Part shown: piece after piece, positions 19,781 through 56,717 of the stretch
How the letters are laid out: each line of letters starts with the position of its first letter
Position numbering within the stretch: position 1 is the first letter of the stretch
Assembly (NCBI GenBank): GCA_964016885.1
Contig: OZ024744.1
Coordinates: 72,168,001-72,232,000, forward strand
DNA from: Eledone cirrhosa
Lineage: Eukaryota
Reading direction: 5' to 3'
Length of the DNA: 64,000 nucleotides
The notes under the pieces: generated by a model
Database searches by the model: none
Told to the model about the DNA's origin: nothing
Seen by the model: the letters and a program-made list of their open reading frames with translations, nothing else
Position numbers and translations under genes: made by a program

Positions 19781-19973
19781 AACGAAGGAAATGTGGTAAG
19801 GAACCAGGTGGACCATAACGCACCAAAGTACTCAATACTTAGGGTAGTAGAGTGGGTAATAGGAATGAGTAGGACCCCGACGGCTGAGCTCAAGCCGTTT
19901 CGACGGCTAATTCTGGTCCAGAATTAGCCGTCGAAACGGCTTGAGCTCAGCCGTCGGGGTCCTACTCGTTCCT
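19781..19973. mobile_element. Fold-back mini-element family A in (TA)n; other copies at 23749-23971, 33191-33333, 38385-38575, 40949-41110, 42290-42338, 53470-53527, 56418-56539
   Basis: Shared sequence gaattagccgtcGAAACggcttgagctcag...tattgagtactttggtgcgttatggtccacctggttccttaccacatttccttcgtt. Four copies carry an inverted partial duplicate. Confidence 0.85.
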
Positions 19974-21599
19974 ATATATATATATATACACATATATATA
20001 TGTATGTATATATATATATATATTTACAACAGTGACACATAAATAGGTACATAAGTTTCGTTGGGTTCTGGACCCTAACTCATTCAGTCTAGTGAAGTAG
20101 TACACACACTGACACACACACACACACACACACACACACGCCCCCCCCCCCCCTCTGTCCCACCACACCACCACACACACACATATACAAACACACTAAC
20201 AGACTAACACACACACACACTGAAATATAGTTTCAGACAGTTACAATCTGTCTAGCCTATGTCAGTGTGGAAAAGACAGTGGGGTCCAGAACCTAAGGAA
20301 AGTTAAGTACCACTTTATGTCACTCATGTAATTATTTATACTAAACTCGTTCTATTGGATATTTCTACCAAACGTTTACTACAGTGTATACATATATAAT
20401 ATATAGATGGGTGTTCTGTGTGTGTGTGTGAATGCATGTGTGTGTGTGTGTGTGTGTGTGTGTGTGTCAGTGTGTCAGTGTGTCTGTGTGTGTGTCCGCG
20501 TGTGTATGTATGTGTGCGTTCATCTGTGTGCGCGTACGTGTGTGTGTGTGTAGTGTATATAATATTAAACACAAAAATAAAGTTCAGCACACATATACAG
20601 TAAAAATAATTGTTTCTACTTTTGGAACAAGGCCAGCAATTACCCCAGTACATTACTGGTACTTTATTTTACATTACTGGTACTTTATCGACCCCGTAAG
20701 GATGAAAGGCAAAGTTAACCTCGGTGGGGTTTGAACTCAGATCGTAAAGGGACGTAACTCTTTGCATCAAAGCATGGCGTCCATAATGTTAATAGCTGCT
20801 GATCATGAGAGCGAAATATTTCTGAAGTAAAATAAAAGAAAAGGTGGCCATTTTCTTTTTGTTTTTAATTTCGCACACATGTTTGACGATATTAATAAAC
20901 ACATACACACAAGCTTACACACAGATACACACATTCTTTTCTACTCTCTCTCTCTCTTTCTTTCTCTCTCAATCTCTCTCTCACTCTCACTCTCACTCTC
21001 TCTCTCTCTCGCTCTCTCTCTCTCTCTCCCATCTCCCACCAACCTAATTTCTGTTTGTTTATTTTTCTTTGTGTTTATATATATATATATATATATATAT
21101 ATATATGTATATATATATATATATATATATATATATATATATATATATATATATATATATATGTGTGTGTGTGTGTGTGTGTGTGTGTGTGTGTGTGTGT
21201 GTGTGTGTGTGTGTGTGTGTGTATATATGTATATATATACATATATATATATATATATATATGTGTATATATATATGTATATATATATATATATGTATAT
21301 ATATATATATATATATATATATATATATATATATATATATATATATAATATGTGTTTATATTTACATTAAATAAAGCTTTCTTACTCTACAACAGAACAG
21401 AGGAGCTCAGTTATGTTATAATTTGAATGGAAGAATATAGAATATATCCAGAATGTTGGGTGGGACACACTATATATATATATATGTGTGTGTGTTTATG
21501 CGTGCGCCATATGTAAGTGCGTGTGTGTGTGTGTGTGTGCGTGCGTATGTGTATATATATGTTTATATGTATATATATACTTCCACCATCGCCACCAAT

Positions 21600-22295
21600 G
21601 AATTACAATCCCCTCTCATTCCCTGGTCTACAACTAGTTATAGATACACCTGATTTATTTTAGGAAATAGAGACCCGTCAAACTAACTAAGCGAAACTTT
21701 TATGTGTCAGAAAAAAGAAATTAAATTGTATGGCGTGAAGTTTCTTCTGGACTTATACAAGTTCCACTTGAAAAGGAAGGTGAGGGTGGAGTATGAGGTG
21801 CTACCCACCCGCCAGTAAATTTTATGATGAAAGATGGTTACAACTGAGAAACATGGCCCGAGTGAATGAGTCCACTTTCTCAGCTGCCACAGTATTGCGC
21901 TTGTCAATAATATAATAATTGTTTCTACATTTGGCACAAGGCCAGTAAATTACCACAGTACATTACTGGTACTTTATTTTATCGACCCCCGTAAGGATGA
22001 AAGGCAAAGTTAACTTCGGCGGGATTTGAACTCAGAACGTAAGGGGCCATAACTCTATGCTGTAGAGCATTGTATCTGAAGATCTACCGATACTGCCAAT
22101 TCAACGTCTTATATAATTGTTTCTACCTTTTGGCACAAGGCCAACAATTAATCCAGTATATTACTGGTACTTTATTTTATCGACCCCCGTAAGGATGAAA
22201 GAAAGGCAAAGTTAACCTCAACTGGAAGAATAATAACATTGTTGCTTTACATGTCTCTTTTCTCATATTTTGACTCTATGTGGCAAATAAAGAAA
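21600..22295 (+). mobile_element. Tx1-like 3' fragment interrupted by a SINE dimer (21915-22222)
   Basis: FLLDLYKFHLKRKVRVEYEVL...ERWLQLRNMARVNES matches the ORF2 C-terminus. The 3' end tgtggcaaataaagaaa resumes at about 22278. Confidence 0.75.
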
Positions 22296-22882
22296 TGGTG
22301 AGTGTTATTGTTGGTGGTGGATTGGCAGAATCGCTAGAGCGTCGGACAAAATGTTTTGCATTTTGCATTTTGATTTCAAATCCAGCTAAATCAGATTTGT
22401 CTTTTATTCTTCCGGGATCGTTAAGATAAAATATCAGTCAAATACTGAAGTTTATTTAATCAACATTCCCCTTCCTCCAAATTTGCTGGCCTTGTGCCTA
22501 AATTATTATCCTTATTGGTAGTAGTAATGGTAAAGGAAGGGGGTGGTGGTGACAGTATCGGACACCATACTTTGCAGCATAGAGTTATGGCCCTTCGTGT
22601 TCTGAGTTTAAATCCCGCCGAGGTTAACTTTGCCTTTCATCCTTACGGCGTCGATAAAATAAAGTACCAGTAATGTACTGGGTAATTTGCTGGCCTTGTG
22701 TCAAAAATAGAAACAATTATTGATAGTGGCCCAGTAGTAGTAGTAGTAGTGTTTTTGTTGTGTTTGCAGGCATTACCACAAGGGAATGAAATATAAAATA
22801 ATGAAAAAATATAAGTAGCATATTCTATAATTTTTATTTTATTTTATTATAAATAAATGGTTTATAAAGTTTCATTGTGTTT

Positions 22883-23411
22883 TATCATCATCATCGTCAT
22901 CATCACCATCACAATCACCACCACCACCATCATTACCATCATCCTCATCATCATCATCATCATCACCACCTCCATCATAATCACCATCATCATCACCATC
23001 ATCACCACCACCATCATCATCATCATCATCATCATCATCATCGTCACCATCATCATCACCATCACAATCACCATCACAATCACCATCACCATCACCATCA
23101 TAATCATCACCATCATCACAATCACCATCACCATCACCATCATAATCATCACCATCATCACAATCACCATCACCATCACCATCATAATCATCACCATCAT
23201 CACAATCACCATCATCATCACCATCATAATCATCATCATCATCATCATCATCATCATCATTATAATCATTATCATCATCACCATCACAATCACCATCATC
23301 ATTACAATCATTATCATCATCATTGTCATCATCATCATCATCATCATCATCATCATCATCATCATCATCACCATCATCACCATCATTATTTATATTACCA
23401 TTATTATTATT
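22883..23411. repeat. (CAT/CAC)n trinucleotide tract; similar tract at 11905-12190
   Basis: Direct reading. Confidence 0.95.
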
Positions 23412-24063
23412 GCATGGGGGAGAGGAATGGAAAACAGATATTGAAATAGACTAAAAATAAGAAAAACAAATTTGTACAAACATCACGTTCTAATCGTTTT
23501 ATTCCCAATATGGATATTAAGCATTAGAATACTTAATGAGAACCATGTAATATAAAGAATTTGAAGTATAGTTAAGTATTATTTCGTAAATTCCTAACAA
23601 GTTTGGGTGGACGCCAATTATGAAGTAAAACATACAAGAATGTCATATTTCTCAGTTGTTTCACAGCCATATATATATATATATATATATATATATATAT
23701 ATATATATATATATATATATATATATATATATATATATATATTTATATAGGAACGCGTAGGACCCCGACGGCTGAGCTCAAGCCGTTTCGACGGCTAATT
23801 CTAGACTTAAAAAAAAAAAATTTTATTTTTTTAGTCCAGAATTAGCCGTCGAAACGGCTTGAGCTCAGCTGTCGGGGTCCTACTAGTTCCTATTACCCAC
23901 TCTACTACCCTAAGTATTGAGTACTTTGGTGCGTTATGGTCCACCTGGTTCCTTACCACATTTCCTTCGTTATATATATATATATATATATATATATATT
24001 TGTTTATGTGTGTGCGTGTTTGTGCACATATGAATATATATAGATATATATATATATACAAAC

Positions 24064-55490: not shown

Positions 55491-55560
55491 TATTTTATCT
55501 GATGAGAACACAATTTTTGTCCCAGGATGATGTTGTTTTCGAAATGCGCATAATAAAATA
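55491..55560 (+). ncRNA. Type I hammerhead ribozyme, same family as 38135
   Basis: TATTTTAT-CTGATGA-stem II-GAAA-TGCGCA-TA-ATAAAATA, with an 8-bp stem I. Confidence 0.8.
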
Positions 55561-55660
55561 TATGGAACTTCTTTAACCATCTTTTAATTTCTTCTTTTAT
55601 ATATATATAGTATATGGAAGGAATATATTAGTCTAACACTTGAAATAGCAGGAAGAGGGT

Positions 55661-55694
55661 GTTAACGTTTCGGACGCTAGTCTTTCATCAAAAG
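55661..55694 (-). ncRNA. Degenerate minimal hammerhead
   Basis: Minus strand: tTGATGA-aa-GAC tagc GTC-c-GAAA-CG-TT. C3 is mutated. Confidence 0.45.
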
Positions 55695-56537
55695 AAAGAA
55701 TGAGAAATAAGATAGACTGAAGGGACGGGCGGGTGGAATTGGAAAAAAATGTTTTTAGAGAAAAATAACAGGTCCATTCATGTGGCCATCTTAGTTGAAA
55801 GAGTCAACAAACAGAGGCACAAAAGTCTTATTGGTTTCACGCTTTATATTGGAAAGAGGAAATATTTGTTTCAACATACGAGTTCATATCAAAAACCTTG
55901 CAAAACAAATGTATATATATATATATACACTATATATATATATATATATATATATATATAGTGTATATATATATATATATATATATATATATATATATAT
56001 ATATATATATATACATTTGTTTTGCAAGGTTTTCGATATGAAATCGTATGTTGAAACAAATATTTCCTCTTTCCAATGTAAAGATCTGAGAAAAACCACA
56101 GACCCTCCATCTCAACTGACCTTTTGAAAAGCAGAAGAACTGCGAAACCGGTAAAGGAACCAAATAAATATATATATATTTTTAAAAATAAGACTCCAGT
56201 TGCATTTTCGATTTCATCTTTCTCTCTCTCTCTCTCTCTCTCTCTCTCTCTCTCTATATATATATATATATATATATATATATATATATATATATATATA
56301 TATATACATATATATATATATATATATATATATATACATATACATATATATATATATATATATATATATATATATATATATATATATATATATATATATA
56401 TATATATATATATGTATAACGAAGGAAATGTGGTAAGGAACCAGGTGGACCATAACGCACCAAAGTACTCAATACTTAGGGTAGTAGAGGAGTAGGAACG
56501 AGTAGGACCCCGACGGCTGAGCTCAAGCCGTTTCGAC

Positions 56538-56717
56538 GGTAACACACCAGAGAGAGATATACAGTGCGTTATCGATAATACAGGGTAAAAAACCACCAGT
56601 GTATGGAATCTATAACCTATAGTCTGCCTTTCATAGGTTATAGATTCCATACACTGGTGGGTTTTTTTTCCCTGTATTATCGATAACGCACTGTATATCT
56701 CTCTCTGGTGTGTTACC
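56538..56717. repeat. Near-perfect hairpin with 85-bp arms fused to a family A copy
   Basis: ggtaacacaccagag...tataacctat versus ataggttata...ctctggtgtgttacc. Confidence 0.9.

What the first reader, a model, noticed from the sequence alone, without database searches (positions are those of the whole stretch)
19781..56717. Guild of non-coding fold-back mini-elements in (TA)n tracts carrying hammerhead motifs (PLE-mobilised, retrozyme-like)
Seen: several unrelated short families (A, B, 38085-38330/55280-55600, 32294, 35441, 39650, 48884) mostly sit directly against TA microsatellites and show no obvious TSD. They consist of a unit plus an inverted partial copy, and contain full or partial CTGANGA...GAAA..TH cores. 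The coding PLE at 51-53 kb has the same architecture. Known: PLEs carry minimal hammerheads in pseudo-LTRs and insert with 5' inversions. Inference: either extreme 5'-truncated PLE insertions or true non-autonomous ribozyme elements. Their density and diversity in one 64-kb window is remarkable.
Basis: partly seen in the sequence, partly recalled or inferred. Interest (0 to 1): 0.75.

Follow-up and report, generated by a model that had tools for sequence, protein, structure and literature searches.

The report
Two-armed stubs of Penelope-like retrotransposons
Most of these fold-back repeats are short end pieces of several abundant protein-coding jumping genes, inserted as mirror-image pairs into TA repeats; one family stops at a fixed base that likely marks where its RNA starts, and one other family is a 480-base non-coding unit likely moved by the same machinery.

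Summary
In detail: TA-flanked, two-armed elements with type I hammerhead motifs (7 in the window against 0.03 in shuffles). They are not MITEs: 41 of 42 family-A junction centres differ. Families A, B, 38085/55280, 25603 and 32294 each extend into a coding Penelope-like element (PLE). A is the end of an intact 3,531-bp PLE with Hydra-clade motifs, a 717-aa ORF and head-to-tail arrays. The inverted-arm-plus-tail layout, TA targeting and solo hammerheads are published PLE features. Only family 35441 looks non-autonomous: a 480-bp non-coding unit with head-to-tail junctions and arms longer than one unit, like a non-LTR retrozyme. Families 48884 and 39650 are unresolved. Hammerhead density is ordinary for this genome. 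The less ordinary detail: 95 of 131 A arms end within 6 bases of one initiator-like site 29 bases after a TATA-like box, inside hammerhead loop II. This suggests run-off ('strong-stop') copies of the mRNA leader and explains A's half hammerhead; it is inferred, no RNA data. This scan reported the same reading on other DNA (e1-9546799, e1-10278228; two-armed retrozymes e1-8665316, e1-8802758).

The parts
19780..19975 (-). Family A two-armed insertion: long arm with tail (19780-19916, -) and short inverted arm (19916-19975, +); end of a Hydra-type PLE; holds only the 3' half of the hammerhead
   Evidence: parent
23747..23972 (+). Family A: short arm 23747-23810 (-), unique junction, long arm 23830-23972 (+), 97% identical to the parent end
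25564..25705 (+). Family C2 stub with complete hammerhead (core at 25603, palindromic stem III); about 80% identical to the pLTR of a coding PLE
32006..32162 (+). Family B stub with complete type I hammerhead (core at 32032) and tail
32160..32587 (-).
33191..33335 (+). Older family A subfamily insertion
35440..36482 (.).
38057..38333 (+). Family C stub with complete minimal hammerhead (38141) and tail
38383..38576 (+). Family A two-armed insertion (98% identical to parent end)
39640..39879 (-).
40474..41111 (.). Cluster: B tail (40474-40530), K piece (40540-40660, GAAA before CTGACGA), two-armed B (40674-40869), two-armed A (40955-41111)
41554..41700 (-). C2-related stub with complete minimal hammerhead (41650)
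42296..42936 (.). A fragment (42296-42340) and an older two-armed B copy (42785-42936)
44128..44364 (-). Non-coding end stub of the same PLE family as 51-53 kb
48743..49165 (-).
50975..53375 (-). 5'-truncated coding PLE (family D, Neptune-like: RT C-terminal part, CX4CxxC linker, GIY-YIG), tail at 50975, inverted short arm 53080-53375
53459..53529 (+). Single short arm of family A
55278..55605 (.). Two-armed family C insertion with complete hammerhead (55499)
56417..56717 (.). Family A long arm (56417-56539, -) joined directly to a fold-back piece of another repeat (family I, 56538-56717)

Best explanation
Families A, B, 38085/55280, 25603 and 32294 are the terminal pieces (pseudo-LTR plus tail) of coding Penelope-like retrotransposons, likely made when the element's enzyme cuts a (TA)n tract and copies one RNA from both DNA ends, while 35441 is a 480-bp non-coding unit likely mobilised the same way. 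Shown: each of the five families continues into RT and/or GIY-YIG coding sequence elsewhere in the genome; the outer ends fall at two fixed sites (an inner TA site and the tail end); one arm is usually long and one short; both arms come from the same subfamily; the junction is new in almost every copy. Taken from the literature: a PLE protein cleaves and extends both target strands and starts reverse transcription at two internal RNA sites that bound the tail (PMC11167929). Inferred: the two cDNAs are joined head to head. Inferred for A and, more weakly, B: the copies stop sharply because the enzyme starts 59 or 140 nt from the 5' end of the mRNA and runs off it; long copies would come from read-through or circular RNA of tandem arrays. 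Inferred for 35441: the template is a circular or multimeric 480-nt RNA cut by its hammerhead.
For: A: 27 of 30 GIY-YIG loci carry the A core 1.15-1.24 kb downstream; 3,531-bp head-to-tail arrays with a 784-codon open frame, 717 aa from Met; model pLDDT 92.7, best solved-structure match telomerase RT; motifs RLRWR, DKTG, CxCX5C, YRDD. B: an ORF begins just after a B pLTR and a second B pLTR follows in L295, with the same order in L296. C: RT-GIY-YIG region followed by the C hammerhead 1,015 nt on with no TA tract between, C tail inverted at the left end, 3' region shared with a second copy. C2: ORF between two direct pLTRs. G: two loci collinear over 2.56 kb from GIY-YIG to the G end. Arms: 48 of 60 one long and one short; 48 of 49 same subfamily against 43% expected; 41 of 42 distinct centres. 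Stop: 95 of 131 A arms end within 6 nt of one site, 5 upstream, 31 downstream; that site is 29 nt after a TATA-like box; B 8 of 14, 30 nt after a TATA box. All 53 A end matches in 964 kb of unselected sequence are 144 nt or shorter; the 24 D matches run from 69 to 2,104 nt. E: tail-to-head junction in 16 of 25 loci; longest Met-started frame 58 aa; TA-adjacent ends 19 at the tail and 17 at the inner site, 18 arms longer than one unit, both orientations in 15 of 24 loci.
Against: No transcript start has been mapped, so the stop could be a pause at the loop II hairpin. The cap-nucleotide test was inconclusive (T 13, G 10, C 9, A 2). The TATA-like box is degenerate in several A subfamilies. C, C2 and D show broader 5' ends without a clear TATA at -30. 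Same-subfamily arms fit snap-back copying of one cDNA as well as two primed ends. The E loci were chosen by likeness to the window copy, so a diverged coding parent is not excluded. F and H have no parent shown. Five single hammerhead regions fold no better than shuffles (z -0.4 to -1.3) and covariation across 12 A-family motifs is not above the shuffle control (59 of 500). Cleavage is untested.
Confidence: 0.85

Rival explanations
1. Ordinary 3'-primed, prematurely stopped reverse transcription followed by snap-back (self-priming) at a hairpin: the sharp limit in A is a pause in hammerhead loop II, not the RNA's 5' end. It shares PLE origin with the best explanation and differs only in mechanism.
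For: The A limit lies in an imperfect hairpin in loop II; same-subfamily arms; palindromic junctions were read as self-priming in PMC3846280 (passages).
Against: Two fixed outer ends used in both orientations (26 against 22) match two-site initiation on both strands (PMC11167929); the B limit sits 30 nt after a TATA box at the start of stem I; some insertions join arms of different families (L024, L059, L075).
Confidence: 0.3
2. All families are independent non-autonomous hammerhead elements (retrozymes) that copy themselves as fold-back units.
For: Short copies far outnumber coding ones (about 33 A insertions per Mb, none longer than 144 nt in 964 kb); E is non-coding.
Against: Five families extend into coding PLEs; junction centres are not inherited (41 of 42 distinct); A stubs lack the first hammerhead block.
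Confidence: 0.07
3. DNA-transposon MITEs with terminal inverted repeats that target TA.
For: Inverted repeats and TA flanks.
Against: Arms are unequal (tail on one side), the centre varies in every copy, and the sequence is the end of an RT-encoding element.
Confidence: 0.02

Closest known systems
Hydra clade of C-terminal EN+ Penelope-like elements (Craig et al. 2021, PMC8557442; passages and supplement rows read; Hydra-1_Obim listed for Octopus bimaculoides)
   Same: RW(R/K), DKT, CxCX5C linker, no pair of cysteines inside GIY-YIG, (TA)n insertion, readily detected hammerheads; inverted 5'-truncated copy and one-sided tail as drawn for PLEs in general.
   Different: Parent A is 3.5 kb with a 3' region of about 1.2 kb (Hydra described as generally under 3 kb); tails are about 60-110 bp rather than 30-40 bp; roughly 100,000 stubs by extrapolation; a sharp 5' limit is not described in the passages read. 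No sequence comparison with Hydra-1_Obim was possible.
Neptune-type PLEs (PMC8557442)
   Same: [quoted passage not shown]
   Different: Clade read from motifs only; no tree built.
Anolis PAc Poseidon element in vitro (Frangieh et al. 2024, PMC11167929; parts 1-2 of 4 read)
   Same: Both strands cut and extended; two internal start sites bound the tail; AT-rich target; hammerhead not needed for insertion.
   Different: There the start sites lie inside the ORF; in A they lie in the 5' leader (59 and 140 nt after the putative +1, ATG at 232). The parts read do not discuss run-off copies of the mRNA leader.
Minimal PLE hammerheads (Cervera and de la Pena 2014, PMC4209133; parts 1-2 of 4 read)
   Same: Type I, palindromic stem III loop, mostly solo motifs from truncated PLEs, opposite-strand pairs 100-700 bp apart, U3-A8 core variant.
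   Different: A has a long loop II of about 40 nt that contains the putative promoter.
Metazoan non-LTR retrozymes (PMC7229834, passages; bioRxiv 10.64898/2026.07.22.740005, parts 1-3 of 5, supplements not seen)
   Same: Family E: non-coding, one type I hammerhead per unit, head-to-tail junction, PLE-type ends.
   Different: 480 bp is slightly above the 150-450 bp quoted; copies seen are dispersed two-armed insertions of up to about 1.6 units per arm, not long arrays; circular RNA untested.

Membership tests
Penelope-like elements (parent of A) | Single ORF with telomerase-like RT | tested here: met
   717-aa ORF; model's best match is TERT, E 1.6e-8. Pfam on hand gave no hit.
Penelope-like elements (parent of A) | C-terminal GIY-YIG endonuclease | tested here: met
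   VIY...YIG motif; one of 20 homologues scores weakly on Pfam GIY-YIG, E 0.014, below cut-off. Motif-level evidence.
Penelope-like elements | Tandem or partial-tandem pLTRs, inverted 5'-truncated copy, one-sided tail | tested here: met
Penelope-like elements | Hammerhead motif in the pLTR | tested here: met
   motif only
Hydra clade | RWK-like and DKT motifs, CxCX5C linker, no CCHH | tested here: met
   A: RLRWR, DKTG, CxCX5C, one Cys in GIY-YIG. B, C: CxCX5C. C2: RIRWR, DKTN. B has DKSN and two Cys in that stretch. G not shown: no motif recovered in the short stretch tested.
Hydra clade | Placement in the RT tree with described Hydra elements | not tested
   Reference sequences not on hand.
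Non-LTR retrozyme (family E) | Non-coding repeat unit with one type I hammerhead, head to tail | tested here: met
Non-LTR retrozyme (family E) | At least two consecutive complete hammerhead units (Li et al. criterion) | tested here: inconclusive
   L241 and L251 hold two hammerhead 3' blocks about 480 bp apart; no long array seen; longest arm 750 bp.
Non-LTR retrozyme (family E) | Self-cleavage and circular RNA | not testable with these tools
   Needs RNA or bench work.
Non-LTR retrozyme (families A, B, C, C2, G) | No coding parent | tested here: not met
MITE | Fixed terminal inverted repeats around an inherited internal sequence | tested here: not met
   unequal arms; 41 of 42 centres distinct
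MITE | TA target-site duplication | tested here: inconclusive
   Cannot be read inside (TA)n; 27 of 30 young A copies have a TA tract at both ends.

The most novel reading that the evidence does not exclude
About 100,000 family-A stubs are strong-stop cDNAs of the PLE mRNA leader, the Penelope counterpart of retroviral strong-stop DNA, inserted two at a time from both ends of one cut. The promoter sits inside hammerhead loop II, so RNA started there carries half a ribozyme and cannot cut itself, while only read-through RNA from tandem copies carries the whole motif and can be cut and circularised into the template for full-length copies. Family 35441, with arms longer than one unit and no fixed stop, would be the circular-template case in the same window.
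Probability: 0.5. Interest if true: 0.65.

Novelty: new member of a known kind. Interest (0 to 1): 0.38.

Why it matters
For annotation: by rough extrapolation several hundred thousand MITE-looking palindromes in this genome are PLE ends and should be filed so. For mechanism: how PLEs make tandem and inverted copies is an open question (PMC8557442 says so). A young, intact family with very many stubs gives statistics on end sites and arm pairing, and makes one cheap prediction, the position of the RNA cap, that would decide between run-off and pausing and would give the hammerhead a role tied to read-through transcription.

Tried and rejected
Rfam scans found no hammerhead; minimal PLE motifs need a descriptor. 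Pfam missed the PLE proteins and sequence searches of solved structures gave nothing useful. First searches for A's missing hammerhead half used too short a loop or a wrong stem (38 heterogeneous matches, then 0); a wider loop found it, and most parents turned out to carry the U3-A8 core, which those patterns could not see. An apparent hard 5' limit as proof that A is non-autonomous was rejected once the parent was found. The cap-nucleotide test was inconclusive. A first TA/TSD script matched nothing and was redone. No RNA holder listed for 35445-36475; no reads were laid. F: 30 loci gave no collinear coding parent; one search was cut, so I saw rows L302-L321 for F and L342-L361 for G only. 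H: 44 matches listed, four same-strand pairs 183-618 bp apart hint at a tandem unit, but the DNA was not examined. An SGC descriptor found only one window hit and none in 900 kb, so K's scrambled order rests on reading 19 printed copies. Two paper searches found no text on strong-stop or solo-pLTR run-off copies in PLEs; the library lacks most subscription papers and bioRxiv supplements were closed.
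Full report
1. Setting. The window is G000:C28:72168001-72232000 of a 3.0-Gb animal genome. No tool named the organism; earlier notes of the scan call it a cephalopod, which I did not test. I sampled 900 kb at positions chosen without regard to content and fetched loci from 12 searches of the genome.

2. Observation. A type I hammerhead descriptor gives 7 complete motifs in the window against a mean of 0.03 in 30 shuffles, and 68 in 800 kb against 1 in the reversed control. 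Rfam sees none. TA tracts lie at an end of 36 of 37 A, 21 of 24 B and 14 of 14 C insertions against 22.7% by chance. Hammerhead density in the window is ordinary (7 against 4.7 expected); family A is about 3-fold richer than elsewhere.

3. One layout. Each insertion reads (TA)n, inverted arm, junction, forward arm, (TA)n. The outer ends fall at two fixed sites, an inner TA site and the end of a tail. The coding element at 51-53 kb and its genome copies use the same two ends. Of 60 two-armed A insertions, 48 have one long and one short arm, 2 have equal arms and 10 could not be fully classed; 48 of 49 classifiable pairs share a subfamily (43% expected if independent); 41 of 42 junction centres differ. 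The palindrome is thus made at insertion and not inherited, which excludes MITEs.

4. Coding parents. A: wider patterns found the complete hammerhead and a GIY-YIG frame 1.2 kb upstream. That protein found 150 scored matches at 90% identity or more; 27 of the 30 loci cut out carry the A core 1.15-1.24 kb downstream. L290-L293 hold head-to-tail arrays (3,531-bp period in L290-L291) with a 717-aa ORF. Its model (pLDDT 92.7) matches telomerase RT best; 818 proteins relate to it at E 1e-20 or better, none with an informative name among the 120 listed. Its motifs are those given for the Hydra clade (PMC8557442). B: L295 runs pLTR, RT-GIY-YIG frame, pLTR, with secondary insertions in between; L296 has the same order. 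C (38085/55280): one sampled copy runs from RT and GIY-YIG into the C hammerhead with no TA tract between and has the C tail inverted at its left end. C2 (25603): ORF between two direct pLTRs. G (32294): L362 and L363 are collinear over 2.56 kb from GIY-YIG to the G end. D (51-53 kb) has Neptune-type motifs.

5. The exception. E (35441) is a 480-bp unit whose longest Met-started frame is 58 aa. In 16 of 25 loci the tail is followed directly by the head of the next unit. Ends next to TA fall at the tail (19) or the inner site (17); 18 arms exceed one unit, up to 750 bp; 15 of 24 loci hold both orientations; 5' ends scatter round the unit. This fits a circular or multimeric template copied by a PLE enzyme, as proposed for non-LTR retrozymes (PMC7229834; bioRxiv 10.64898/2026.07.22.740005). 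The loci were selected by likeness to the window copy, so a diverged coding parent remains possible. F (48884) is older and showed no parent in the rows I saw. H (39650) has at least 44 matches, but their DNA was not examined.

6. Why the cores are 'full or partial'. All 53 A end matches in 964 kb of unselected sequence reach at most 144 nt from the tail end, while the 24 D matches range from 69 to 2,104 nt. Mapped on the parent, 95 of 131 A arms end within 6 nt of one adenine, 5 go further and 31 stop short; loci picked for upstream extension were left out of this count. That base sits in an initiator-like context 29 nt after a TATA-like box; in B the limit (8 of 14 arms) lies 30 nt after a TATA box. 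The promoter consensus and spacing are recalled, not from a call; PMC3846280 describes TATA and initiator motifs in rotifer pLTRs. In A the site lies inside hammerhead loop II, so stubs hold only the GAAA/stem III half; in B it lies at the start of stem I, so the motif can be whole. Against: the box is degenerate in some A subfamilies, C, C2 and D show no such sharp pattern, and a test for a cap-templated base was inconclusive. Some other partial cores (family K, perhaps H) appear to be hammerheads in scrambled block order (PMC10085705).

7. Mechanism. Shown: parentage, two fixed ends, one long and one short arm, new junctions, sharp limit in A. Published: both target strands are cut and extended and reverse transcription starts at two internal RNA sites that bound the tail (PMC11167929). 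Inferred: both ends of a cut in (TA)n prime on one RNA, the two cDNAs run to the RNA's 5' end or stall and are joined head to head; full-length copies come from read-through or circular RNA. Snap-back at a hairpin (PMC3846280) remains a rival for the junction and the stop. Hammerhead activity is untested: folding z-scores are weak and covariation in 12 A-family motifs is within the shuffle range, with stems II and III 97% and 92% paired and three rows misaligned in stem I.

8. What is known. The inverted 5'-truncated copy, one-sided tail, (TA)n targeting and non-autonomous derivatives are in PMC8557442 (passages), which lists an octopus Hydra element (supplement rows). Solo and opposite-strand minimal hammerheads from truncated PLEs and the U3-A8 core are in PMC4209133. 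An octopus repeat annotation counts 31 recently active PLE families and does not contain the word ribozyme (PMC13282606, passages). Run-off copies of the mRNA leader were not found in print by two searches, but this scan noted the same idea on other DNA, which I read after reaching it.

9. Verdict. Real and well explained: new members of a known kind. Five families are stubs of coding PLEs, one is a retrozyme-like non-autonomous unit, two are open. The strong-stop reading with a promoter inside the ribozyme is the part worth testing. Interest 0.38.

Noticed in passing
window 10250-10310 (+): Hammerhead in scrambled S-G-C block order with 8-bp stems I and III, like the type-SGC motifs of PMC10085705 and earlier notes of this scan.
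   Followed up: partly
window 38600-38663, 40540-40660, 58521-58642 (family K): TA-bounded family with GAAA before CTGANGA; stem I differs in paired fashion between subfamilies; probably a scrambled hammerhead. No parent found.
   Followed up: partly
L290-L293, L260-L289: The A parent's hammerhead core occurs as U3-A8 (most copies), C3-G8 and unpaired C3/A8 within one family.
   Followed up: partly
L024, L059, L075; window 56417-56717: Insertions whose arms or junction join different PLE families, pointing to template jumps or two RNAs at one cut.
   Followed up: partly
L091 7895-9763; L107 700-2400: Tandem hammerhead arrays with a 467-bp and a roughly 550-580-bp period.
   Followed up: no
window 34169-34457 (-): GIY-YIG fragment of a second coding PLE family, with a small palindrome at 34679-34718.
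   Followed up: no
window 6223-6390 and about 20 further copies: A dispersed repeat of about 165 bp, probably a SINE (label recalled, not tested), sometimes itself in fold-back pairs.
   Followed up: no
window 163-3515; 24560-25429: A LINE with endonuclease and RT (Pfam hits); an RTE-like fragment (label recalled) with a 49-bp inverted copy across a TA tract at 25281-25429.
   Followed up: no
window 62713-64000: 19-bp tandem array, 68 copies.
   Followed up: no
tails of A, B, G and E: Similar short motifs (TTGAGTAC in A and B, TTGAGTGC in G, CTGAGTAC in E) lie in otherwise unrelated tails; a possible protein-binding signal, not tested.
   Followed up: no
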